In this document: positions 14,853 to 30,374 of the stretch, in pieces
Numbering within the stretch: position 1 is the stretch's first letter
Layout: each line of letters begins with the position of its first letter
Source of the DNA: Thiovulum sp. ES
GTDB taxonomy: Bacteria > Campylobacterota > Campylobacteria > Campylobacterales > Thiovulaceae
Reading direction: 5' to 3'
Length of the DNA: 64,000 bases
Assembly (NCBI GenBank): GCA_000276965.1
Contig: AKKQ01000003.1
Coordinates: forward strand, 462-64,461
Made by a program: the position numbers and the translations under genes
Notes under the pieces: generated by a model
Databases searched by the model: none
What the model saw: only the letters and a program-made list of their open reading frames with translations
Told to the model about the DNA's origin: nothing

Positions 14853-17800
14853 CTAACTTTCACCAATTCTACTTAAAAATGTATCCCCAAAATCACTCAA
14901 AACATAGAAATCTGTTTCAACTAAAAAATGTCTATTTTCATACCAAAAATAGATAATGAGTTGAAAATTTCCATTAAGCTCTTTTGCAGTTTCTCGAAGA
15001 AGAATCATTTCGCTTTTGTTTAAAAAGAAGTTCAAATTTAAATATGTTTTTCCTCTTTTAACTGTTTCTGTCGTTGGTTCATCATTTTCAATAACTTTTG
15101 GTTCAATATCTTCTTGAGTTTTGCCTTTTTTTAACTTTTTACTTTTTTCGACGACCTCATCGAGAGTAAAAAACTTTTTATAATTAAATTTGACTTCACT
15201 CCCTTCCAATTTAATTAAAGTTCTCATTCCAATCGGTTTTGATAAATCCATCTCTTTTAAAATCTCAATTTCACTCGCAAAGAAAATTAGACTAACTTCA
15301 CCAGAAGTATCTTCAATTTTTCCAATCGAATATGGATTACCAGCTTTTGAAATTTTTTCTTCACCAATATCTACAAAACCGACAAAAACCACTTCTTGTT
15401 CATGCTTGAAATTTACATTATCAATAATTTTAGAAACTTTTTTAAATTCGGAAATCTGTTCTTGAAATTCTTTAAATTTGGAATCTGAAAATTTCTGAAT
15501 TGCATCATCTAAAGAAAAAAACTCTTTGTTTTCCAATTTAAAATTCTCATCTTCTATTTTTAAAGAAGCTTTAATTCCAATTGGTTTTGATAAGTCAAGT
15601 TGCTTTAAAATTTGCATCTCTTTACCAAACATCATAAATTCAAGTTCGCCTGTGAAATCTGATATTTTTCCTTTTCCGTAGAGATTTCCAGCATTTGATA
15701 TTTTTTCCTCAAACTCAACAAAACCAACTAAAAATACTTTTTGCCAATTTTGAAAATCATCTTTTTCTGTTGTTTTTGAGATATTTTTTAATTTGGAAAT
15801 ATCTTCTCGATATTCGTCAAGTGGGTGAGCTGAAACATAAAAATTTAAAACCTCTTTTTCAAGTTCTAATTTTTCTTTCAGTCTATATTCAGTTCGTGGA
15901 ACTAATTTTAGTTCTTTTGTATTTTCGGTGAAATTGTCATCATCTCCGAAAAGTCCCTCGGAAGCACTTTTTTGTAATTTGCCAACTTCACTAGCAAATT
16001 GCACAATTTTCTCAATTTCGTCAAGTAGTGTTTTTCGATTGTAATTCGTTTTGTCAAAACCACCTGCTTTAATTAAGGATTCAAAAGTTCCTTTATTTGG
16101 TTTTACACGATTTAAAAAATCAGGAATATCTTTAAATTCTCCATTTTTTTGAGCTTCTACAATTGTTTCAACTGCACTACCGCCAACACCTTTAATTCCT
16201 TCAAGCCCAAAAAGAACTGCTTCTTTTCCATCTTTTTCAACAATTGAAAAACCTTTTTGAGATTTGTTTATATCTGGAGACAAAATTTCAATACCCATTG
16301 TTTTTGCTTCTTCAACATAAAGTGCAATTTTGTCCATGTTTCGGCTTTCAGTTGAGAGAAGAGAAGCCATAAATTCAGCAGGATAGTGTGCTTTTAAATA
16401 TGCAGTTTGGAAAGTGATCATCGCATAAGCGGCGGAGTGTGATTTGTTGAATCCGTAACCAGCAAATTTTTCGATGAGGTCAAACAGTTCTTCCGCAATT
16501 TCTCTATCAAGTCCCTGTTCTTCAGCACCGTCGGCAAATTGTGATTTATACTCTTTCATCAAATCAATCTTCTTTTTACCCATTGCTCGACGAACAATAT
16601 CTGATTTTCCAAGTGAAAAACCACCAATTTTTTGAACAATTTGCATAACTTGTTCCTGATACACAATCATTCCATAAGTTGGATCTAAAATCTCTTTTAG
16701 CTGTTCAGGAAATTCCTTACCTTCAAATGGATAAAAAATATCTTGTCGTCCATGTTTTCGTTCAACAAAATCGTCTAACATTCCCGCTTCCATTGGACCA
16801 GGTCGGTAGAGAGCAATAAGTGCGATGACATCTTCAAAATTTGATGGTTTCATTCGCTTATTCAAATCTCGCATTCCGCCTGACTCGATTTGGAACATAC
16901 CGATTGTTTTTCCCGCCGACATCATTTCGTAAACTTTTGGATCGTTCATATCGATGTCGTGCCAAACAATGTCAATATTTTTGTGTTTTTTAACCAAATC
17001 AATCGCACCAAAAATTACATCAAGTGTTTTTAAACCAAGAAAGTCAAACTTAATTAAATCAACATCTTCCAAATAATCAAGCGAATATTGGGTAACAAAG
17101 TCGCCCTCTTTTGAAAGGTGAAGCGGTGTTTTATTCCAAAGTGCCTCGTTTGAAATTACAAGTCCCGCTGCATGAATTCCTGTATTTCGTTTAAGTCCTT
17201 CTAGCTTTTCAGAAATATCCCAAACTTTTTGCAAATCAGGATTATTTTGTAGCGAGTCTGTGATTCTTGGCTCACTCTCTTTTGCTTTTTTCAGTGTAAT
17301 TTTTAGCTCTTCAGGAATCAATTTCACAAATTCATTCACAATTGGTAGCGGAATATCAAAAACACGACTCACATCTCGGATTACTCCTTTTGGCAAAAGG
17401 GAACTGAAAGTTGTAACTTGTGCTACATTTTCCCGTCCATATTTTTCCTGCACATAGCGAATAATCTCTTTCCGTTTGTTTTGTGCAAAATCCATATCAA
17501 TATCAGGCATTGAGACCCGTTCAGGATTTAAAAATCTCTCAAAAAGCAAATCATATTTTAGTGGATCGATGTCGGTGATTCTGAGAGCAAAAGCAACAAG
17601 CGAACCTGCTGCTGAATTATGAACCGTGTAATTTGTTGTTGTGTATGAGTGATCGTCTTTCACTGAAAAATCAAAAACTTCTGTTTTCTTCTTTGGGATT
17701 TTTGTGATTTTTCGAACTTTTAATTTAATGTGATCATCAAAAGTTTGATACTCTTCTTCATTGGAAGCAAAATGTGATTTTAAAACATATATATTATCAA

Positions 17801-19907
17801 GCACCTCAATAGATACTGGTTTATATGTGGATAACAAAAGCATTCTTGTATATTCAGCAATCTCTCTTTCTCTAAAAAAAAGTTCTAAATCTTCTGTACT
17901 GTTTGTATCACACATATTCTCAATATTATTACTTTGCCCTAATAACATATATAAAATGTTATTTTTTACTTCACTTGTTAAGCTATTTAATAAATTAAAT
18001 AAAGTTTGAACATTATTTTTCTTGAAAAATGAGAAAAGTATTCTGTCTTGAATTATAAAAGTCTCTTTATCTTTACTAAAAGCTCTATAAACTTTATAAC
18101 CCATTTCCAGTAAATAAATACCTAAATATCTTGACATAGAGCTACGATTTAAAACTAAATTAACAGTTTTATGCTTTTCATTTAAATAGCCATTGTATAT
18201 ATAATATATTATTAATTCAGCTAATAAATCTTTTCTAATATACCTTGAAACACCTCTTTCTGTTCGTCCAAAAAGTTCTACATCATCAAACTCTTCAACA
18301 GGTTCAAAGCTGTTTGATTTCTCATTGTAATTAAAAATTACAACTGGTTTTATAAAAATATCATTTTTGTAAAAAATTCTCTCTTTAATTAATTCAAAAT
18401 CACTGTCATCATAAAAATTTAATAAATCAAATTTGATGTCATCTGAAGTATCTTCCAAATATTTTGGAATTGGTTGAAAAAGACAATCTTTTTCAGTTAT
18501 CTCTTTTGCTTCTTTCCACTCACCATTTCCTAAATAGACTTTATGATCTCCAGTTAAAACAATTGGATTTACAAAATCTCCGTAAAAAGTCTCAATTTTA
18601 TAAAGCTCTTCTTCTATTTCATATTTGAAAGTTTCTAAAACTTCTTTTTCTCGGTTTTTGTGGCTTATGACAATATCGCCAACCTGAACCTCATCGATAC
18701 TTTTTTGAGTGAAACCAAATCCATCTTTTACATAAACTTGAGCTTCTTTTGTCAAACAGCCACGACCTGGTCCAACTGGAATATTTGTTTCACCAGAATA
18801 ACGGACAAAGTCCCAAACGATCAACATGTATCCTGGAAACTTCATACTATTTATAGTATTTATTTCGTGTTCAAGTCGGTCTCGATATTTTTGATGTTCC
18901 TCTTCTGGCACAAATTTTAATCGCTCTTCCAAACCTCTCCGAGACTGTTCAGTAAAAAGAACAGCATCATTTTCAAACGAAAATCTCTCCTCTTTTTGTG
19001 GAAGTTCTAAATCTATCTCTTTTGCATATTCAAGTGTGAATTTAAAATTTGGTGGAGTCGGATTTCCTAAATTTAGTTTCAAGTTGCATTTGTCAGCAAT
19101 CACATTTGTATTTTCAACTGCTTCAGGAATATCTTTGAAAACTTTTTCCATATCTGCGGGAGACTTGATAAAAAACTCATGAACAGTATGTCTCATTCGT
19201 TTTGGGTCGTTCCAAGTTTTTCCTGTTCCAATTGCCATATAAACTTCGTGAGCTTCAGAATCTTCTGCATTTGTATAGTGAGTGTCATTTGTCGCGACAA
19301 GCTGGATTCCCGTCTCTTTTGAAAGTCGGATGAGGTCGTTGTCGATATTAAATTGGTGTCCAATTCCGTGTCGCATAATTTCCAAATAGAAATCATCTCC
19401 GAAAATCTCTTTGTATTCTAAAGCAACTTTTTTTGCTTCTTCATACCCTTTTGAGCCTCTTTCCCGATTTTTATCACTCTGATTTAAATGAAAATTTACT
19501 TCACCAGCAAGACATGCAGAAGTGCAAACAAGACCTTCACTCCGCTCTTTCAACATTTTTTTTGGAATTCTCGGTTTGTAATACATATTTTCAAAAGCCT
19601 GAGAAGACAAATACATCAAATTTTGGTAGCCGACCTCATCTTTTGCATAGAGACAGAGGTGAAATATACCTTTCTCTTTCACTCCAAAATCGTGATTTGT
19701 TACATAAGCCTCCATTCCAATAATTGGCTTAATTCCTTCTCGACTCATTGTTTGATAAAAATCAATTGCACCGAACATATTTCCATGATCGGTGATTGCG
19801 ACGGAACTCATTCCAAGCTCTTTTATCTTTTTTGCCACATTCTTAATTTTGTTTGCACCGTCAAGTAAGGAATAGTCGGTGTGAAAATGGAGGTGTGTGT
19901 AACTCAT
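14853..19907 (-). CDS. dnaE: DNA polymerase III alpha subunit DnaE interrupted by an in-frame intein and carrying a duplicated C-terminal segment
   Basis: 1684 aa. It has an N-terminal PHP domain (HLHFHTDYSLLDG) and PVGPGRG | intein | SAAGSLVAFAL..PDIDMDF. The remaining conserved pol III alpha core runs through ..GYGFNKSHSAAYA. Confidence 0.95.
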   Translation of the reverse strand: MSYTHLHFHTDYSLLDGANKIKNVAKKIKELGMSSVAITDHGNMFGAIDFYQTMSREGIKPIIGMEAYVTNHDFGVKEKGIFHLCLYAKDEVGYQNLMYLSSQAFENMYYKPRIPKKMLKERSEGLVCTSACLAGEVNFHLNQSDKNRERGSKGYEEAKKVALEYKEIFGDDFYLEIMRHGIGHQFNIDNDLIRLSKETGIQLVATNDTHYTNAEDSEAHEVYMAIGTGKTWNDPKRMRHTVHEFFIKSPADMEKVFKDIPEAVENTNVIADKCNLKLNLGNPTPPNFKFTLEYAKEIDLELPQKEERFSFENDAVLFTEQSRRGLEERLKFVPEEEHQKYRDRLEHEINTINSMKFPGYMLIVWDFVRYSGETNIPVGPGRGCLTKEAQVYVKDGFGFTQKSIDEVQVGDIVISHKNREKEVLETFKYEIEEELYKIETFYGDFVNPIVLTGDHKVYLGNGEWKEAKEITEKDCLFQPIPKYLEDTSDDIKFDLLNFYDDSDFELIKERIFYKNDIFIKPVVIFNYNEKSNSFEPVEEFDDVELFGRTERGVSRYIRKDLLAELIIYYIYNGYLNEKHKTVNLVLNRSSMSRYLGIYLLEMGYKVYRAFSKDKETFIIQDRILFSFFKKNNVQTLFNLLNSLTSEVKNNILYMLLGQSNNIENMCDTNSTEDLELFFREREIAEYTRMLLLSTYKPVSIEVLDNIYVLKSHFASNEEEYQTFDDHIKLKVRKITKIPKKKTEVFDFSVKDDHSYTTTNYTVHNSAAGSLVAFALRITDIDPLKYDLLFERFLNPERVSMPDIDMDFAQNKRKEIIRYVQEKYGRENVAQVTTFSSLLPKGVIRDVSRVFDIPLPIVNEFVKLIPEELKITLKKAKESEPRITDSLQNNPDLQKVWDISEKLEGLKRNTGIHAAGLVISNEALWNKTPLHLSKEGDFVTQYSLDYLEDVDLIKFDFLGLKTLDVIFGAIDLVKKHKNIDIVWHDIDMNDPKVYEMMSAGKTIGMFQIESGGMRDLNKRMKPSNFEDVIALIALYRPGPMEAGMLDDFVERKHGRQDIFYPFEGKEFPEQLKEILDPTYGMIVYQEQVMQIVQKIGGFSLGKSDIVRRAMGKKKIDLMKEYKSQFADGAEEQGLDREIAEELFDLIEKFAGYGFNKSHSAAYAMITFQTAYLKAHYPAEFMASLLSTESRNMDKIALYVEEAKTMGIEILSPDINKSQKGFSIVEKDGKEAVLFGLEGIKGVGGSAVETIVEAQKNGEFKDIPDFLNRVKPNKGTFESLIKAGGFDKTNYNRKTLLDEIEKIVQFASEVGKLQKSASEGLFGDDDNFTENTKELKLVPRTEYRLKEKLELEKEVLNFYVSAHPLDEYREDISKLKNISKTTEKDDFQNWQKVFLVGFVEFEEKISNAGNLYGKGKISDFTGELEFMMFGKEMQILKQLDLSKPIGIKASLKIEDENFKLENKEFFSLDDAIQKFSDSKFKEFQEQISEFKKVSKIIDNVNFKHEQEVVFVGFVDIGEEKISKAGNPYSIGKIEDTSGEVSLIFFASEIEILKEMDLSKPIGMRTLIKLEGSEVKFNYKKFFTLDEVVEKSKKLKKGKTQEDIEPKVIENDEPTTETVKRGKTYLNLNFFLNKSEMILLRETAKELNGNFQLIIYFWYENRHFLVETDFYVLSDFGDTFLSRIGES
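17616..18758 (-). mobile_element. DnaE intein (381 aa); the endonuclease core appears degenerate
   Basis: Starts at Cys384 (codon at 18756-18758, minus strand) right after GPGRG. Ends ..NYTVHN (Asn codon 17616-17618), followed by Ser. Block B is LTGDHKV. Block F/G is VFDFSVKDDHSYTTTNYTVHN. The central region has only weak LAGLIDADG-like strings (LLAELIIYYIYNGYL) that lack the acidic residues. Confidence 0.85.
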
Positions 19908-22282: not shown

Positions 22283-22960
22283 TTATTTTGAGATTTTTTT
22301 GTAGAGTTTAAAGCAGGATTCAAGACTCTGTTCATTTGCAACAAATATTTGAAAGTGATCAGGAATTGCTTTTTTTGTTGTCTCTCCGATTGCAATAAAA
22401 ATTGCATCATTTGGAACTTCACTGTTTTTAAAAAGGCATTTTACAGAGAGAGGAGAAGTTGCAATAATAAAAGAGTTTTTCTCAATTGCATTGGATTTTT
22501 TGCAAACTGTTTGATACACAATCTCTTCTTTCTTAAAAACACCAAAATTTTGGAGATTTTTTCCAATTTCTCGAGCAACTTTTTGCGGACGAAAATATAG
22601 AAATTTTTTATCTTTAAATTTTTCCAAAATCAATTTTTCCAAACTTTCACCATTTCCCGATGAGGTCGCGAGAATTTTTCCACCAAATTTTAAAACTGCT
22701 TTTTTAGTTTTTTTTCCAACAGCAACTGCAGGATATTTTTTCCAATCTTCACTTATTCGATTTACAGCTTCTACTCCATTTTTAGAGGTAAAAATAAGTG
22801 TGTCAATTTCTGAAAAATCAATTTCTGGATCTAAAAATTGGATTTGAATTGTTGGATTTGAAATTGTTTCGTCAAATTTTGTCGGGGAGAGTAGATAAAT
22901 TCTATTCAAATTTTTCCTTCTTGATTGTATAATGAGAGTATGCAGGTTTTTTATGAACAT
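22283..22960 (-). CDS. hemD: Uroporphyrinogen-III synthase (probable)
   Basis: FTSKNGVEAV and a two-lobe HemD-like pattern; it sits beside hemA. The likely true start is the TTG at 22909 (residue 18, preceded by AAGGA), which removes the overlap with the divergent mcrC-like gene. Confidence 0.5.
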   Translation of the reverse strand: MFIKNLHTLIIQSRRKNLNRIYLLSPTKFDETISNPTIQIQFLDPEIDFSEIDTLIFTSKNGVEAVNRISEDWKKYPAVAVGKKTKKAVLKFGGKILATSSGNGESLEKLILEKFKDKKFLYFRPQKVAREIGKNLQNFGVFKKEEIVYQTVCKKSNAIEKNSFIIATSPLSVKCLFKNSEVPNDAIFIAIGETTKKAIPDHFQIFVANEQSLESCFKLYKKISK

Positions 22961-24058
22961 AATTATATTTCAAATGATAGTTTAGTTTCGTCAATTAGAA
23001 AAGATGTGTCGCTTCAAAGATACTTTACTTCTGATTTTGGTGGAATAAAAACCTCTTCATTTTGTGGCTCTCTCAAAGTTGGAAATAGCGATATTCTTAT
23101 TTTGCCAAAGATTTCAAAGAGTAGAGATGTGAATTTTAAAATATTCACATACATGATTCTCTATTCACACGATATTAAAAATAGGGATATAGACTCTTCC
23201 ACTTATCACGAAAACTTGCTTGAGGTTTTCATAGACATTTTTTCAAAAAGTTTGCTTGAAATAATAAACAGGAATGGTTTATACAAGGAGTATGTTTCTG
23301 TTCAAAATGAGAACAGTTTTTTAAAAGGGAAACTTATTCTTAAAGATTATATCTTAAAACGAAATGTTAGCAGTAAAATTTTATGCGAATATGATGAATT
23401 TAGTGCAAATCATAAATTAAATCAATTTTTTACCTACACAGTTCGGGAATTAAAAAAGTTTTCAAAGAACAAACTTTCTCTTATAAAACTTGAAAAAATA
23501 TTTAGCGAAGTCGAACCAATTTACAACGAAAAAATAGAATTCAATCACTTAAACATAAGGTTTAAAGAGAATTTTAATTTGGCAAAATTTTTGTTAAAAC
23601 ACTTGACAAATAAGAAAATTAGAAACTCTGAAAATTTCTCATTTATGTTTGATATGGATTTGCTTTTTGAAGATTTTATTGGAAAGATTTTTAAGGAAGT
23701 TGCAAATGCTAAATTGCAAGAAGTTGGATATTTTGGAAATTTAAAATTGACTCCAGATATTGTTTTAGATGACCTCATCGTAGATTTAAAATATAAGATT
23801 TTTAAAGATGAAGTTAAAAAAGAGGACAAGTATCAAATGTATATTTACGGGAACAATTTTGAGCGAAAAAATACTATGTTGCTCTATCCAAAACATTTTA
23901 AAAATGTTGAGACAAAATTAAAGCTAGGCAATAATGAACACGGTTTAAATCTTTTTGTGAGAACAATTGATTTAGACTCTGACTCAAATTATAAAGAGTA
24001 TATTTCAGAAATAAAAAAGAGAATAGAAAGGATTTTATATGATGAACGACTTAAGTGA
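22925..24058 (+). CDS. McrC-like PD-(D/E)xK nuclease subunit of a McrBC-type restriction system
   Basis: 377 aa. The C-terminal catalytic pattern is LTPDIVLDDLIVDLKYK (D...D-x-K), as in McrC. The likely start is the ATG at 22940 (MQVFYEHNY). The 3' end overlaps the next gene by 20 nt. Confidence 0.65.
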   Translation: MYNESMQVFYEHNYISNDSLVSSIRKDVSLQRYFTSDFGGIKTSSFCGSLKVGNSDILILPKISKSRDVNFKIFTYMILYSHDIKNRDIDSSTYHENLLEVFIDIFSKSLLEIINRNGLYKEYVSVQNENSFLKGKLILKDYILKRNVSSKILCEYDEFSANHKLNQFFTYTVRELKKFSKNKLSLIKLEKIFSEVEPIYNEKIEFNHLNIRFKENFNLAKFLLKHLTNKKIRNSENFSFMFDMDLLFEDFIGKIFKEVANAKLQEVGYFGNLKLTPDIVLDDLIVDLKYKIFKDEVKKEDKYQMYIYGNNFERKNTMLLYPKHFKNVETKLKLGNNEHGLNLFVRTIDLDSDSNYKEYISEIKKRIERILYDERLK

Positions 24059-26096
24059 AAAACTTAAAGGAATGAGTATATCAAATGACAATGATGTCGA
24101 AACTAAAAAGGAGAGTGAAGTAACAAAAGTAGAACAACTTGAAAAAGAGAATGATAAAGTTGAATTTTTCGTTAATGCCTCTATAAGTATTTTTATTAAC
24201 GATGGACTTTCTCAAAACTACATGTTTTTCCGTGATGCTTTTAGGGAGTTAAAACTGCTTTTAGAGAGTGCTGAATATATAAATATGGGTTATGAACCTA
24301 AAGTTGAAAAAAGTGATGCAGTCTATTTTCAGTCTAAAAGTTTTACATTTTTCTGTGCAACTGGAGAAAAAGGATTTTTAAGAGTTTTCCGTATCGAAAA
24401 AAGTGCTGAATACAATGAAGTGCAAGTTCGCAATGTCTTTAGTTTAATTGAAGAGTTAAATTGGAGCAAACCGAATTCTCATTTAGAGTATCTCTATTTC
24501 TCCCTAGATGTTGATAGAGGAATGATTAGTGGTGATTTTTTAAATGAGTTTTCAAACGATTCGATTCCTATTATATTTGAGACTGATAAAGTTCGAGAAG
24601 AGGATATTTTTTATGTAAAAGAGTATTTTAAAAACTCACAATATGTTGAGCTTTCTAAGGACAAAGAGAACTTAAATCTATATATTTACGGCTATAAATT
24701 AAAAGCGATTTTAAGTAGAAATAGAAACCACCTTTTTATTTTTAATATTGTTCTTGACTCTAGTAGTAAAAAGAGAGATTTCTATATTGATAGCTCAATA
24801 TTTAAATTTGGTTTGACTCAAGAAGAAGTTGATAACAAAGCAACAAATCCAGATGTAGACAGATTTTGGAATAGAGTGAGTCCGAAATTGGAATACTGTT
24901 TTAGCAATGTTCCAGACAAGGATATAGAACTAAATTTTCAAGCTCCAAAACACAATATTCCATTTAATAACGATATTGCAAATATTAAAAACGAGATTGT
25001 TGAACTTTTTTATAGAGGAAATCGAGCAATTATCTACACAAGCACACTCAAAATAGAGGCGATTGTTCATAAAACAAATTTCGATGTTAATGTAGATTTA
25101 ATCCGACACAATGGAAATCGAGAAACTCATAATAACTATGAGAAATTCCTTGTCAAAGGTTCTATCTTCGATGTTACCCAAGGGGACATAAAACAAAATA
25201 GAAAAGATAATCACAATCTTGTCTCTTTCCTAAGAAGCGGTTGCAAGAAAAAAGAGCAACAAAAAATTATTGAAACTCCTAAAATTGAATCAAAACCAGT
25301 TTTGACATCTAACAAGCAAGTAGCTTACAATTTTAAAAATATTATTCTTTCTGGAGTTGCTGGAGTTGGAAAAACTCACAACTACAAAAAACTTATCTCT
25401 CTTATTGAAAATGGTGTTCCTGAAAAAGATATTTTTAATGAATTGGTAAAAAACGATGAGGTTTTCTATGCAGATTTTAAAGATCGTGTTGAATTTATCA
25501 CTTTTCACCAAAGCTACTCTTATGAAGAGTTTATTGAAGGTTTCCGACCAAATGAACATGGTGGAATTTCAATTGAGAGCGGAGTTTTTAAAGACTTTGT
25601 TGATCGGGCAAAAAGAGACCAAAAGCAGAAATATTACTTTGTAATTGACGAAGTCAATCGTGGAAACATCTCAAAAATCTTTGGTGAGCTTATCACTCTA
25701 ATTGAAGATACGAAACGAGAAAATCTCTCCGCAAAATTACCTTACTCGAAAGAGAATTTCACAATTCCGAAAAACCTTTTTATTATTGGAACTATGAACA
25801 TTACAGACCAATCAATCTCTAAAATTGATATTGCATTGCGACGACGATTTATTTTTGTAAATATTGTTCCAAAACCGCAATTAGTTTGTGAAGAGTTCCG
25901 AGAAAGATTTGTTGAATTAAACAGATTTATTGGGGATAATTTGGGCGACGATTACTTGATTGGACACTCATATTTTATGAGATGTAATGGTGAGAATTTA
26001 AACTTTATTTTAGAACATCAAGTGATTCCGCTTGTTCAAGACTATTTTTATGGAGATAGAGAGAGTTTGGAGGCAATCGCTTCAATTTTGGTTTAA
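24039..26096 (+). CDS. McrB-like AAA+ GTPase/ATPase subunit with a long unrecognised N-terminal domain
   Basis: 685 aa. The C-terminal 250 aa or so has GVAGVGKTH (Walker A), FHQSYSYEEFIEG, FVIDEVNRGNISKIFGELITLIE (Walker B/McrB signature) and IIGTMNITDQSISKIDIALRRRF. I recognised no motif in residues 1 to about 430. Confidence 0.75.
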   Translation: MMNDLSEKLKGMSISNDNDVETKKESEVTKVEQLEKENDKVEFFVNASISIFINDGLSQNYMFFRDAFRELKLLLESAEYINMGYEPKVEKSDAVYFQSKSFTFFCATGEKGFLRVFRIEKSAEYNEVQVRNVFSLIEELNWSKPNSHLEYLYFSLDVDRGMISGDFLNEFSNDSIPIIFETDKVREEDIFYVKEYFKNSQYVELSKDKENLNLYIYGYKLKAILSRNRNHLFIFNIVLDSSSKKRDFYIDSSIFKFGLTQEEVDNKATNPDVDRFWNRVSPKLEYCFSNVPDKDIELNFQAPKHNIPFNNDIANIKNEIVELFYRGNRAIIYTSTLKIEAIVHKTNFDVNVDLIRHNGNRETHNNYEKFLVKGSIFDVTQGDIKQNRKDNHNLVSFLRSGCKKKEQQKIIETPKIESKPVLTSNKQVAYNFKNIILSGVAGVGKTHNYKKLISLIENGVPEKDIFNELVKNDEVFYADFKDRVEFITFHQSYSYEEFIEGFRPNEHGGISIESGVFKDFVDRAKRDQKQKYYFVIDEVNRGNISKIFGELITLIEDTKRENLSAKLPYSKENFTIPKNLFIIGTMNITDQSISKIDIALRRRFIFVNIVPKPQLVCEEFRERFVELNRFIGDNLGDDYLIGHSYFMRCNGENLNFILEHQVIPLVQDYFYGDRESLEAIASILV

Positions 26097-27641: not shown

Positions 27642-30374
27642 TTGGAAAGAACAAAAGATGAATTATTAGAAGAAAATATACAACTGAAGCAGATAGGCGG
27701 GATTGTTGATGACTTCTTAATTATTACAAAAACTGATCCACAAGGAAAAATTACTTATGCAAATAAGAGTTTTCAAAAAATAAGCGGATATTCGCTAGAA
27801 GAACTTCTTGGTCGTTCTCATTCACTTGTTAAACACCCAAAAGTTCCTAGCAGTTTTTACAAAGTTTTATGGGAAAAAATTTCAAACAAACAGCCTTGGC
27901 GAGGAGTTGTTAAAAATATAAGTAAAACTGGTCATACTTACTATGTAGAATCATATATAAAACCAATTTTAAGTATAGATAATGAAATTATCGAGTATGT
28001 TTCTGTTCGTAAAGATATTACAAAAAGAATTGAAAAAGAGCGAGAAGTTCGAAGAGAAAAGATATTTTTTGAAGATGTCTTGAATCGTCAAGACTCTATT
28101 ATTGTTTTAACAGATAAAAAACAGGGAATGCTTGATGTAAATAATAAATTCTGGGAATATATTGAGTTTAACAATATGGCAGAGTTTAAAAAACACTTTC
28201 ATTGTATTTGCGATCTTTTTGTTTTTGATGATATGCTTGGAAATATCTGTGTTGAAAATTGTATGGAAGAGATTCACAAATCTCCCGATGCCGTTCACAA
28301 AGCAAAATTTGTTGATGGTGAAGGAAATATAAGTTTCTTTATTGTTAAAGTCGATGAAATTAAAGTTTCAGAAAGCAGAGCAAAAAAATATAATATAGAG
28401 AGTGATACAATTTTTCTTGTTACACTTCATGATATTACAGAGCTTGAATTAGCTTTACAGAGTGCAAAAGCGGCCACAAATGCTAAATCTCGTTTTCTTG
28501 CAAATATGAGTCATGAAATCCGAACTCCGATGAATGGAATTTTAGGATTTACAGAACTTCTGAAAAAAACACCTCTCACTGAAGAGCAAGGAAAATATCT
28601 TTCAACAATTTCATCAAGTAGTAAAACTCTGCTCGGAATTATTAATGATATTCTTGATTTTTCAAAAATTGAGAGCGGAAAACTTGGGCTTGAAACAACA
28701 CAATTCTCACCAATTAGTGAATTTGAACCAACAATTGAACTCTTTTCAGCACCCGCACTTGAAAAAAATATCAAATATCTTGTTTTTGTAAATCCTGCTT
28801 TTCCAAAACAGATATCTCTTGATTCGCTTAGAGTTAAGCAAGTTATTAGTAATCTTGTTGGAAATGCGATCAAATTTACTCCAGAAAAAGGAACAATTGA
28901 GATTGATATTACTTTCCGAAGAATTTCACCAGAAAAAATAAAACTTCACATCTCAATAAAAGATAGTGGAATCGGAATTCATGAAGATAAGCAAGAAGAG
29001 ATTTTTTCTCCTTTCTCTCAAGCAGACAACTCTATAACTCGTAAATATGGCGGAACTGGACTCGGTCTCTCAATTACCAAAAGTTTTGTTGAGTTGATGG
29101 GTGGAAAACTTCAGTTAAATAGTGAAGTTGGAAAAGGTAGCCGATTCTTCTTCGACCTCATCGTAGAAGCAAACAATGAAAAAAACTTAGAACTTGATTG
29201 GCTGAAAAGAAAAAATACACTTATATATTTACCAAACGGTGATACACCTGAAAGTATTCTTCTTGAAAAATATCTTTACGGTTTTGGTTTTCGAGTTGAA
29301 AAAAGCACAAACATAAATTTCTATAAACACTCTGAACTTGCTTGGATTCTCTCTTCAACAATTGATGAATTTGAGTTTATGAATATTATAAACAGAGTAA
29401 AAGATGTTCCTTTTATTGTTATTGATGCTGGTGAAAAATGGTTAAAGGAGTTTGGAAAAGAGAGAGTCCCTTATCGTGTCAAGCTTCCTGTAACAATTTC
29501 TAGAATTTATGATGTCATTATTGATAGCTTAAAAGAGGGAGAGGAAGAAGAGAAAGAGCATTTCAGTGATTTATCTGATCAAAAACGGAAAGATGGAAAA
29601 CTCTTTTTTGAAAATGTTTCTGTTCTTGTTGTTGAGGACACAGAAGTAAATCAGATGTTTATTGAAATTCTCCTAAAAGAGTACGGAATTGAGCCAGACA
29701 TGGCAGACAATGGACGAATTGGTGCGGACAAAGTCGCCTTAAAAGAGTATGATTTAGTTCTTATGGACATAAATATGCCTGTTCTTGGTGGAGTTGAAGC
29801 AACTCATGAAATCCGAAAAATGCCACACCGAAAAGATACAAAAATTGTTGCACTAACGGCAAATGCAATGGCTGGAGATCGCGAGATGTTTATTCGTGAG
29901 GGAATGGATGAATATCTTTCAAAACCTGTTGAAATTCCTGAACTTGAAAGAATTCTTTCAAAATTTCTTGTCAAAAATAGCAAAATTCTTAAAGAAAAAG
30001 AGAATTCTAAAGAGATACAGAATGGGAGTGTGGATGTTCCAAAGGACTCTTTTGATGCAATTTCCCAAGAATCTATTAGTCGAGAATTGATGTTACCTCC
30101 TCAAATTGTTGCCAAACTGATCAACAAATTTTTTGATGGTGTCTATATCGATTTTCAAAATATTGAAACAGCAATTTCTGAAAAAGATACAACAAAAATA
30201 AAAGAGATTGCACATAAAATTAAAGGTTCATCTGGAAATTTACGATTCGTCTATCTTTCTGAATTGATGAAGAAAATTGAATTTTCTGCAAAAAGTGGAA
30301 AAACTTCTGGTTATGACAAGATTTTAAAATCTGTCAAAAATGAACTAAGCCGAATTAAAGAGAATGTTTTATGA
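27642..30374 (+). CDS. Hybrid sensor histidine kinase (PAS - HisKA - HATPase - receiver(s) - Hpt)
   Basis: 910 aa. It has a PAS-like N-terminus ([21 protein letters not shown]), an H-box [14 protein letters not shown], an N/G-box ([22 protein letters not shown]), a receiver ([24 protein letters not shown]) and a C-terminal Hpt ([11 protein letters not shown]). Confidence 0.9.

What the first reader, a model, noticed from the sequence alone, without database searches (positions are those of the whole stretch)
22925..26096. McrBC-like restriction islet with inverted gene order and a 430-aa uncharacterised reader domain
A two-gene cassette is wedged between the hemA-ispB-hemD operon and pyrC-ybeY. 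The first gene is McrC-like, with a PD-(D/E)xK motif (PDIVLDDLIVDLKYK). The second overlaps it by 20 nt and has the McrB AAA+ core (GVAGVGKTH, FVIDEVNRGNISKIFGE, IIGTMN..DIALRRRF) only in its last 250 aa or so. The canonical order is mcrB then mcrC, and here it is reversed. The N-terminal 430 aa of the McrB-like protein is where the DNA-modification-reading domain sits in known systems, and I recognised nothing in it. It could specify a new target modification. The cassette has only 2 copies of the abundant word in 3.2 kb.
Basis: partly seen in the sequence, partly recalled or inferred. Interest (0 to 1): 0.55.

Follow-up and report, generated by a model that had tools for sequence, protein, structure and literature searches.

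The report
McrBC restriction cassette, triple-repeat reader arm
This is an intact two-gene McrBC-type restriction system in Thiovulum sp. ES, already annotated as such; its motor protein carries an unusually long N-terminal arm that is three tandem copies of a roughly 120-residue domain matching no known DNA-modification reader, so its target is unknown.

Summary
ORF 22940-24058 is McrC (PF10117, E 7e-44) with invariant PD...DxK residues. ORF 24039-26096 overlaps it by 20 nt and is McrB-like; its AAA+ GTPase domain (Walker A/B, NITD, RRR) occupies only residues 430-685.

The mcrC-then-mcrB order is the rule in the nearest Campylobacterota relatives and is already noted in the literature. Two copies of the abundant word (ACCTCATC) is about the genome average (2.7 expected). 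The window is Thiovulum sp. ES, and GenBank already calls both genes McrBC.

The N-terminal 430 aa is the interesting part. It has no match in Pfam, NCBIfam, PADLOC, PHROGs or PDB sequences. It is not one domain but three diverged tandem repeats: A 38-168, B 169-283, C 284-405. Stacking the repeats in one alignment raised AlphaFold pLDDT from 32 to 84, and that model has no significant Foldseek match in PDB or BFVD. Homologues are extremely rare (4 clusters among 1.84 billion representatives), carry two or three repeats, and come only from contigs sharing the Thiovulum 8-mer. All repeats are under purifying selection.

Verdict: a new variant of a known kind, of moderate interest.

The parts
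22905..22933 (+). Promoter-like element TTCAAA-17-TATAAT, ending 6 nt before the mcrC ATG
   Evidence: Consensus scan, 10 of 12 matches. It lies inside the annotated 5' end of the divergent hemD ORF. Its function is inferred only.
22940..24058 (+). mcrC (372 aa from ATG 22940; the mechanical ORF starts at TTG 22925): DUF2357-type N-terminal part plus PD-(D/E)xK nuclease
   Evidence: PF10117 E 7e-44. PDB 6ut5_G, TgMcrC, E 3e-18. Exact match to EJF07697.1 as a 372-aa protein. dN/dS 0.07-0.11.
23753..23797 (+). McrC nuclease motif PDIVLDDLIVDLKYK (P272, D273, D282, K284)
   Evidence: Aligned to the TgMcrC PD...DAK motif. P272, D273, D282, K284, E244 and Q299 are invariant in 7 McrCs of the clade.
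24039..26096 (+). mcrB-like gene (685 aa), overlapping mcrC by 20 nt
   Evidence: Exact match to EJF07698.1.
24039..24149 (+). Family-specific N-terminal peptide (MNNLxEKLK) followed by an acidic low-complexity linker, aa 1-37
   Evidence: M2, N3, L5 and K10 are invariant in the family. The peptide is absent from 111 sister McrBs. dN/dS 0.3-0.8.
24150..24542 (+). Repeat A (aa 38-168): acidic (pI 4.8), the most divergent copy
   Evidence: hhalign A-C and A-B. Stacked alignment. Leave-one-out HMM aligns it in register. dN/dS 0.11-0.31. Absent in P0004, P0006 and P0008.
24543..24887 (+). Repeat B (aa 169-283): pI 5.9; present in all nine full-length family proteins aligned
   Evidence: dN/dS 0.17-0.24.
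24888..25253 (+). Repeat C (aa 284-405): basic (pI 8.9), most conserved, next to the motor. Carries the family motifs IELNFQAPKH and TQGDxKxxRxxNxxLxxFL.
   Evidence: AlphaFold2 model with pLDDT 84.4 and pTM 0.79. No Foldseek match at E<=0.001 in PDB or BFVD. dN/dS 0.07-0.09, as low as the AAA+ domain. Invariant columns.
25254..25325 (+). Variable linker (aa 406-429)
   Evidence: 38-75% identity and dN/dS 0.41-0.47 against the three-repeat homologues.
25326..26093 (+). McrB AAA+ GTPase domain plus lid (aa 430-685): Walker A 25353-25376, Walker B DE 25647-25652, NxxD signature NITD 25797-25808, RRR 25839-25847
   Evidence: AAA_5. NCBIfam McrB E 4e-40. PDB 6ut3 and 6hz4. PF28529 McrB_lid in homologues. 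Motif positions. All motifs invariant in the family.
26070..26083 (+). Weak terminator-like hairpin at the 3' end of mcrB
   Evidence: Pattern scan: 5-bp stem, no better than the shuffled expectation. Low confidence.

Best explanation
The locus is a functional, stand-alone McrBC-type (Type IV-like) restriction system of Thiovulum sp. ES.

Shown:
- mcrC and mcrB are adjacent and overlap by 20 nt.
- McrB has a canonical NxxD-branch AAA+ GTPase domain with all catalytic motifs.
- McrC has an intact PD-(D/E)xK nuclease.
- The McrB N-terminal arm is three diverged tandem copies of one ~120-aa alpha/beta domain. Its predicted topology is b1-a1-b2..b7-a2. It resembles no known modification reader.

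Inferred from the established McrBC mechanism:
- McrB forms GTP-bound hexamers.
- McrC inserts into the ring and stimulates GTP hydrolysis.
- The N-terminal arms select the DNA to be cut.

Inferred for this arm:
- The motor-proximal repeat C is the nucleic-acid-binding, specificity-determining copy. It is basic, it is as constrained as the motor, and it has its own conserved polar patch (E297, N299, K304, H305, Q381, D383, K385, R388).
- The acidic, faster-evolving repeats A and B are degenerate copies with an accessory role, such as spacing, avidity or regulation.
- No methyltransferase accompanies the cassette in any of its three genomic contexts. The target is therefore most likely a DNA modification, or another feature absent from host DNA, rather than a plain sequence.
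For: - McrBC identity and intact motifs.
- Operon structure is conserved in every homologue, at three different genome positions, with no methyltransferase in the flanking genes whose products have Pfam hits.
- Purifying selection on every part, with dN/dS 0.07-0.31 for the repeats.
- Repeat architecture. hhalign between repeat profiles gave P 6e-6 to 6e-4, end-to-end and collinear. In local mode the scores were 24-33, against shuffled maxima of 13.5-21.7, exceeded in 0 of 25 shuffles. The stacked alignment shows a shared hydrophobic pattern and the terminal motif sIF..T.G....N..L..F. HMMs built without one repeat type align that repeat in register over almost its full length. Natural variants carry A+B+C, B+C or A+B.
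- Structure. pLDDT rose from 32 (unstacked) to 84 (stacked repeats).
- The motor-proximal repeat has a non-negative net charge (pI 7.1-9.2) in 8 of 9 family proteins, while distal repeats are acidic to near-neutral.
- N-terminal domains are the swappable specificity module in this clade. The 109 nearest McrBs that could be trimmed carry unrelated N-termini of 54-230 aa, some of them HTH_73, DUF7225 or DUF4268. This is also the accepted view for McrB homologues (PMC7680126; PMC11090510).
Against: - No direct evidence that any repeat binds DNA or a modified base.
- The fold has no recognisable DNA-binding relative.
- Two of the three repeats are acidic.
- Repeat homology rests on weak profile-profile scores. 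Plain HMMs do not cross-detect the repeats significantly.
- The AlphaFold improvement could partly reflect the shorter query rather than the stacking; no control run was possible.
- The model comes from only 20 hand-stacked sequences.
- A methyltransferase elsewhere in the genome cannot be excluded.
Confidence: 0.6

Rival explanations
1. It is a sequence-specific, modification-blocked McrBC variant of the LlaJI/LlaI/BsuMI type. The three repeats would read a DNA sequence, and the host would be protected by a methyltransferase encoded elsewhere.
For: Some McrB homologues bind DNA site-specifically through their N-terminal domains (PMC7680126; LlaI preprint). Tandem DNA-binding domains are typical of sequence readers.
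Against: LlaJI-type systems are operon-linked to their methyltransferases. Here none is adjacent in any of the three genomic contexts, which are flanked by housekeeping genes. There is no B3-like or other known site-specific fold.
Confidence: 0.12
2. The repeats do not read nucleic acid at all. They would sense a phage or plasmid protein, or act as an autoinhibitory or oligomerisation scaffold that gates the motor-nuclease.
For: Repeats A and B are acidic, pI 4.6-6.7. The fold resembles no known nucleic-acid reader. A family-specific N-terminal peptide is conserved.
Against: In every characterised McrB this position holds the DNA-targeting domain. The motor-proximal repeat is basic and carries a conserved K/H/K/R patch. 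Without a DNA-targeting domain the complex would lack a known way to engage substrate.
Confidence: 0.15
3. It is an RNA-targeting McrBC derivative of the CoCoNuT type.
For: McrBC-derived systems predicted to target RNA exist (PMC11090510).
Against: The GTPase signature is NxxD (NITD), not the NxD of CoCoNuTs. No HEPN or other extra nuclease domain was detected, and no additional gene lies in the cassette. The McrC PD-DxK residues are intact.
Confidence: 0.03
4. It is a decaying or inactive remnant cassette.
For: It is a solitary islet between housekeeping genes. Its GC content is lower than that of its flanks.
Against: There are no frameshifts or internal stops. All catalytic motifs are invariant. 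dN/dS is 0.07-0.31 throughout. It is retained at the same locus in three diverged Thiovulum-like genomes.
Confidence: 0.03

Closest known systems
Thermococcus gammatolerans McrBC (PDB 6ut3, 6ut5, 6ut7)
   Same: It is the best solved-structure match for both subunits: McrB AAA+ E 5e-42 and McrC E 3e-18. It is also a two-gene system, with an N-terminal specificity domain tethered to an NxxD AAA+ GTPase and a PD-DxK McrC.
   Different: TgMcrB has a single YTH-like N-terminal domain that reads 6mA (PMC7680126). Here the arm is about 430 aa, made of three copies of an unrelated domain, and the N-terminal regions share no similarity.
E. coli K-12 McrBC (PDB 6hz4, 6ut6, 7vsr)
   Same: The AAA+ GTPase domain matches at E ~1e-39 to 6e-40, with NCBIfam McrB E 4e-40 and McrC E 4e-14, both far below the equivalog cut-offs. 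It has the same motor-plus-nuclease logic.
   Different: The E. coli reader is DUF3578/ADAM, which is absent here. The E. coli gene order is mcrB then mcrC (own knowledge; one search says only that McrB is upstream in most systems); here it is mcrC then mcrB.
Campylobacterota mcrC-mcrB cassettes (Hydrogenimonas urashimensis, Sulfurimonas sp., Arcobacteraceae MAGs)
   Same: These are the nearest AAA+ relatives, at 52-58% identity. They have the same mcrC-upstream order (reading frames overlapping in two of the three) and McrCs of 374-380 aa with the same invariant residues.
   Different: Their McrBs have short N-termini of 54-230 aa. These are unrelated to the repeat domain (best hmmsearch E 0.024 among 109). 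A few carry HTH_73, DUF7225 or DUF4268.
LlaJI.R1 / LlaI (site-specific McrBC relatives)
   Same: A McrB-type motor with a non-canonical DNA-binding module.
   Different: Those systems are methyltransferase-linked and use a B3 domain or a separate R1 protein. No methyltransferase, B3 domain or third gene is present here.

Membership tests
McrBC (Type IV, motor-driven restriction) | McrB: AAA+ GTPase domain with Walker A, Walker B, the Nx(x)xD signature and arginine residues | tested here: met
   GVAGVGKT at 439-446, DE at 537-538, NITD at 587-590, RRR at 601-603. AAA_5, NCBIfam McrB and PDB McrB matches.
McrBC (Type IV, motor-driven restriction) | McrC: DUF2357 N-terminal part plus a PD-(D/E)xK nuclease with catalytic D...D/ExK | tested here: met
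   PF10117 over its full profile length, E 7e-44. P272, D273, D282 and K284 align to TgMcrC and are invariant in the clade.
McrBC (Type IV, motor-driven restriction) | The two genes are adjacent, co-oriented and co-transcribable | tested here: met
   20-nt overlap. mcrC directly precedes mcrB in all homologous loci, overlapping it except in L091/L092, where a small ORF intervenes. The order is mcrC first, a minority arrangement overall.
McrBC (Type IV, motor-driven restriction) | An N-terminal McrB domain of a known modification-reading type (DUF3578/ADAM, YTH, EVE/PUA, SRA) | tested here: not met
   No Pfam, NCBIfam, PADLOC or PHROG hit in aa 1-430. No PDB sequence hit with single sequence or profiles. 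No Foldseek hit for the repeat C model.
McrBC (Type IV, motor-driven restriction) | GTP-dependent cleavage of modified DNA | not testable with these tools
   Requires biochemistry or phage challenge.
LlaJI/LlaI/BsuMI-type site-specific McrBC relatives | Operon linkage to protective methyltransferase(s), with a B3 domain or a separate R1 DNA-binding module | tested here: not met
   The flanking genes are hemD and pyrC, OmpA-like and MoCF_biosynth, or PALP with an unannotated gene fragment at the contig end. No methyltransferase is present.
CoCoNuT (RNA-targeting McrBC branch) | NxD GTPase motif, long coiled coils, additional HEPN or other nucleases | tested here: not met
   The motif is NITD, i.e. 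NxxD. There are no extra genes or domains. Definition taken from PMC11090510.
Sliding-clamp (DnaN/PCNA) processivity fold, considered for the repeat domain | Structural superposition with significant score | tested here: not met
   DnaN chains recur among the top Foldseek hits, but at E 0.7-2, probability <=0.1 and TM ~0.21. This is not significant.

The most novel reading that the evidence does not exclude
The ~120-aa repeat is a previously unseen nucleic-acid or modified-base reader fold, confined to the Thiovulum lineage and used in a tandem array on a McrB motor. Repeat C would recognise a DNA modification not covered by known Type IV readers. The degenerate acidic copies A and B would add a new layer, such as multivalency or gating, to McrBC target selection.
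Probability: 0.3. Interest if true: 0.6.

Novelty: new variant of a known kind. Interest (0 to 1): 0.42.

Why it matters
McrB N-terminal domains decide which DNA modification a Type IV system attacks, and each new reader fold has become both a mechanistic case study and a reagent for detecting modified bases. Here a confidently modelled domain has no sequence or structural relative. It is used as a triple tandem array, which no characterised McrB has, and it occurs in two-repeat and three-repeat natural variants. That makes it a concrete and cheap target for binding assays and crystallography. The motor, the nuclease and the gene order are ordinary for the clade, and the host is uncultivated, so the wider significance depends entirely on what the repeat binds.

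Tried and rejected
- AlphaFold2 on the whole 426-aa N-terminus with 6 orthologues failed, with pLDDT 32. It was replaced by the stacked-repeat alignment.
- The search for homologous proteins with the stacked alignment A3 returned nothing. This negative is uninformative. The same alignment, built into an HMM locally, scores family members at 200-315 bits, so the candidate step evidently missed them.
- GTDB species representatives hold no relative of the N-terminus. Plasmids, phages and IMG/VR hold none either.
- I searched for an empty hemD|pyrC site. The nearest PyrC in genome contigs is 51% identical and in metagenome contigs 63%. None of the 80 metagenome loci fetched (nor the two genome-contig loci) shows hemD or ybeY next to pyrC, so presence or absence at the locus could not be tested.
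- There are no flanking direct or inverted repeats, integrase or tRNA that would mark a mobile element.
- BLASTP between repeats shows no significant similarity. There is no DNA-level repeat either. The duplication is therefore ancient.
- A weak PDB profile hit to the C-terminal domain of an Orn/Lys/Arg decarboxylase (2x3l, E 0.0037) spans the A/B boundary. I judged it to be chance.
- The sliding-clamp resemblance was rejected.
- The word-depletion argument was rejected.
Full report
**1. What is at the locus**

ORF listing shows two + strand ORFs, 22925-24058 and 24039-26096, overlapping by 20 nt. They lie between a minus-strand hemA/ispB/hemD block and a plus-strand pyrC/ybeY pair (Pfam labels of the syntenic locus L002).

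The first product is a full-length McrC:
- It matches PF10117 at E 7e-44 over profile positions 1-318 of 318.
- It aligns to T. gammatolerans McrC (6ut5_G) at E 3e-18, with PD...DLK aligned to PD...DAK.

The second product is McrB-like only in aa 430-685:
- AAA_5 covers aa 434-604.
- NCBIfam McrB covers aa 433-673 at E 4e-40, below the equivalog cut-off.
- PDB T. gammatolerans and E. coli McrB match at E 5e-42 to 4e-39.
- The GTPase signature is NITD, which is the canonical NxxD branch of Bell et al. 2024.

An exact-sequence look-up identifies the window as Thiovulum sp. ES. The two proteins are EJF07697.1 ('McrBC 5-methylcytosine restriction system component') and EJF07698.1 ('GTPase subunit of restriction endonuclease'). 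The McrBC call is therefore already in GenBank. The mcrC start is ATG 22940 rather than TTG 22925, because EJF07697.1 and the homologous McrCs are 372-374 aa.

**2. Is the cassette active?**

Everything points to an active system.
- Walker A, Walker B, NxxD and the RRR cluster are invariant across the family.
- McrC residues E244, P272, D273, D282, K284 and Q299 are invariant across seven McrCs of the wider clade.
- Pairwise dN/dS against three orthologous loci (L002, L006, L001) is 0.07-0.13 for McrC and the AAA+ domain and 0.07-0.31 for the N-terminal repeats.

**3. The gene order is not unusual here**

A search with the AAA+ domain returned thousands of McrBs. The closest outside the family, at 52-58% identity, are from Campylobacterota. 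I examined three of them: Hydrogenimonas urashimensis, a Sulfurimonas genome and Arcobacteraceae MAGs. All have mcrC immediately upstream of mcrB, overlapping it in two; in the Arcobacteraceae loci a small ORF lies between them. All family members show the same mcrC-upstream, overlapping order. Bell et al. 2024 state that McrB is upstream 'in most cases' and that 'occasionally ... the operon order was reversed'. The inverted order is a clade trait and is documented.

**4. Islet status**

- The cassette occurs at three unrelated positions: hemD|pyrC in the window, L002 and L006; OmpA-like|MoCF_biosynth in L001; PALP|an unannotated gene fragment at the contig end in L003-L005.
- It is 3-11 GC points below its flanks in all seven loci examined.
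- It has almost no non-coding flanks, no bordering repeats, no integrase and no adjacent tRNA.
- The 'abundant word' is ACCTCATC/GATGAGGT, with 55 copies in the window against 1.2 expected. The cassette's two copies equal the genome-wide density of 2.7 per 3172 bp, so they give no evidence of foreign origin.
- The same word is abundant in the flanks of all family loci (0.67-1.29 per kb) and absent from the flanks of the Hydrogenimonas, Sulfurimonas and Arcobacteraceae loci. This places every known family member in a Thiovulum-like lineage.
- I could not find an empty site. The nearest PyrC-bearing contigs are only 51-63% identical and not syntenic.

**5. The N-terminal 430 aa**

There is no hit in Pfam, PADLOC, NCBIfam or PHROGs. 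There is no significant hit against PDB sequences with the single sequence or with profiles; the best is E 0.0037 to a decarboxylase, which I judged to be chance.

Homologues are extremely rare:
- The word-indexed search of 5.8 billion proteins found six.
- An exhaustive HMM search of 1.84 billion cluster representatives found four clusters.
- There are none in GTDB representatives, plasmids, phages or IMG/VR.

Alignment of the family shows a modular arm:
- Long forms carry segments A (aa 38-168), B (169-283) and C (284-405).
- P0004, P0006 and P0008 carry B+C.
- P0009 carries A+B, then runs into the C-type terminal helix.

The evidence that the three segments are copies of one domain is as follows:
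- Profile-profile comparison aligns them to each other end-to-end and collinearly, with P 5.6e-4 for A-B, 2e-5 for A-C and 6.4e-6 for B-C.
- In local mode the scores are 24-33. Column-shuffled controls reached at most 13.5-21.7, and none of 25 shuffles per pair reached the observed score. Reversed controls scored 8.6-12.5.
- A stacked MAFFT alignment of 20 repeat sequences shows a common pattern. It runs 'sI.i.F', a helix, a run of strands, then 'sIF.iT.G....N..L..F/Y'. There is one invariant Phe (F377 in repeat C) and near-invariant Ile and Asn.
- HMMs built without one repeat type still align the left-out repeat in register over almost its full length at the expected place. The scores are weak, 4-17 bits.
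- Plain BLASTP and single-repeat HMMs do not cross-detect the repeats. The duplication is therefore old, and the homology claim is supported rather than proven.

**6. Structure**

AlphaFold2 on the whole arm with six orthologues gave pLDDT 32. Using the stacked repeats as the alignment for window repeat C gave pLDDT 84.4 and pTM 0.79, and all five models scored 82.9-84.4. The topology is b1-a1-b2-b3-b4-b5-b6-b7-a2.

Foldseek found no match at E<=0.001 in PDB (best E 0.68, TM <=0.27) or in BFVD (best E 0.1). None of the solved McrB N-domains, SRA, YTH, EVE/PUA or B3 structures appears among the 50 best hits listed. DnaN clamps recur among the insignificant hits (TM ~0.21), and I do not regard that as evidence.

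Caveats:
- The alignment is small and hand-stacked.
- No control run without stacking was possible.

**7. Differentiation of the repeats**

- Repeat C is basic (pI 8.9) and A and B are acidic (pI 4.8 and 5.9).
- The motor-proximal repeat has a non-negative net charge (pI 7.1-9.2) in 8 of 9 family proteins. This includes P0009, where the proximal repeat is of B type.
- Repeat C is as constrained as the motor, with dN/dS 0.07-0.09. Repeat A is the least constrained, at up to 0.31.
- Repeat C alone carries family-invariant polar residues in the b1-a1 and b7-a2 loops: E297, N299, K304, H305, Q381, D383, K385 and R388.
- I infer that C is the substrate-reading copy and that A and B are accessory.

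**8. Context within the clade**

The 109 nearest McrBs that could be trimmed have N-termini of 54-230 aa. These are very diverse and unrelated to the repeat (best E 0.024). A few match HTH_73, DUF7225 or DUF4268. This fits the established picture that the motor and nuclease are conserved while N-terminal domains are 'structurally unrelated' specificity modules: DUF3578 for 5mC, YTH for 6mA, B3 for site-specific binding (PMC7680126). Unannotated McrB N-domains are therefore common. The unusual features here are the length, the tandem triplication and the apparent absence of the fold from the solved-structure and viral-model libraries that were searched.

**9. Verdict**

This is a genuine, intact McrBC system that is already annotated. 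Its gene order is ordinary for the clade. Its target-recognition arm is new: three copies of an unclassified domain, restricted to a Thiovulum-like lineage. I class it as a new variant of a known kind, with interest 0.42.

Noticed in passing
window 14853-19907 (-): dnaE encodes 1684 aa. Its DNA_pol3_alpha domain is split by an intein: Pfam Intein_splicing matches aa 417-764, with GCLTKE...VHNS boundaries. The C-terminal ~390 aa beyond the HHH_6 domain has no Pfam hit and appears by eye to contain two similar ~90-aa segments (possibly duplicated OB-like domains; not tested).
   Followed up: partly
whole window, e.g. 23772 (+) and 25455 (-): The 8-mer ACCTCATC/GATGAGGT occurs 55 times against 1.2 expected, with a frequent extended core CGATGAGGTC. 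It appears in both orientations, about once per 1.2 kb, inside genes. It is equally abundant in related contigs L001-L006 but absent from the flanks of the Hydrogenimonas, Sulfurimonas and Arcobacteraceae loci (one copy lies inside the Sulfurimonas cassette). It looks like a lineage-specific, uptake-signal-like or otherwise selected word.
   Followed up: partly
window 22905-22960: As mechanically called, the hemD (-) and mcrC (+) 5' ends overlap. An in-frame TTG at 22909 (-), preceded by AGGA, would give a shorter HemD and a 30-nt divergent intergenic gap. The TATAAT at 22928-22933 ends only 6 nt before the mcrC ATG, which suggests a leaderless or very short-leader mRNA.
   Followed up: no
L091 3480-3998 and L092 3513-3998: In the Arcobacteraceae relatives, an extra ORF of 161-172 aa with no Pfam hit sits between mcrC and mcrB. 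This is a three-gene variant of the same cassette. NADAR, WYL and PIN genes are nearby.
   Followed up: no
window 24039-24074 (McrB aa 1-12): The N-terminal peptide MNNLxEKLK is conserved in all family architectures (A+B+C, B+C and, weakly, A+B) but is absent from 111 sister McrBs. Its function is unknown. It partly coincides with the mcrC/mcrB overlap.
   Followed up: partly
McrB aa 117-197 (window 24387-24629): A weak profile match (E 0.0037) to the C-terminal domain of an Orn/Lys/Arg decarboxylase family protein (PDB 2x3l) spans the repeat A/B boundary. It is probably chance.
   Followed up: no
tool behaviour: The large-database search with the stacked alignment A3 returned no hit, not even the family members. 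The same alignment built into an HMM locally scores those members at 200-315 bits. That negative result should not be used.
   Followed up: yes
window 27642-30374 (+): A 910-aa ORF lies directly downstream of ybeY. By eye it looks like a PAS / histidine-kinase / receiver / HPt hybrid sensor kinase; no domain search was run on it.
   Followed up: no
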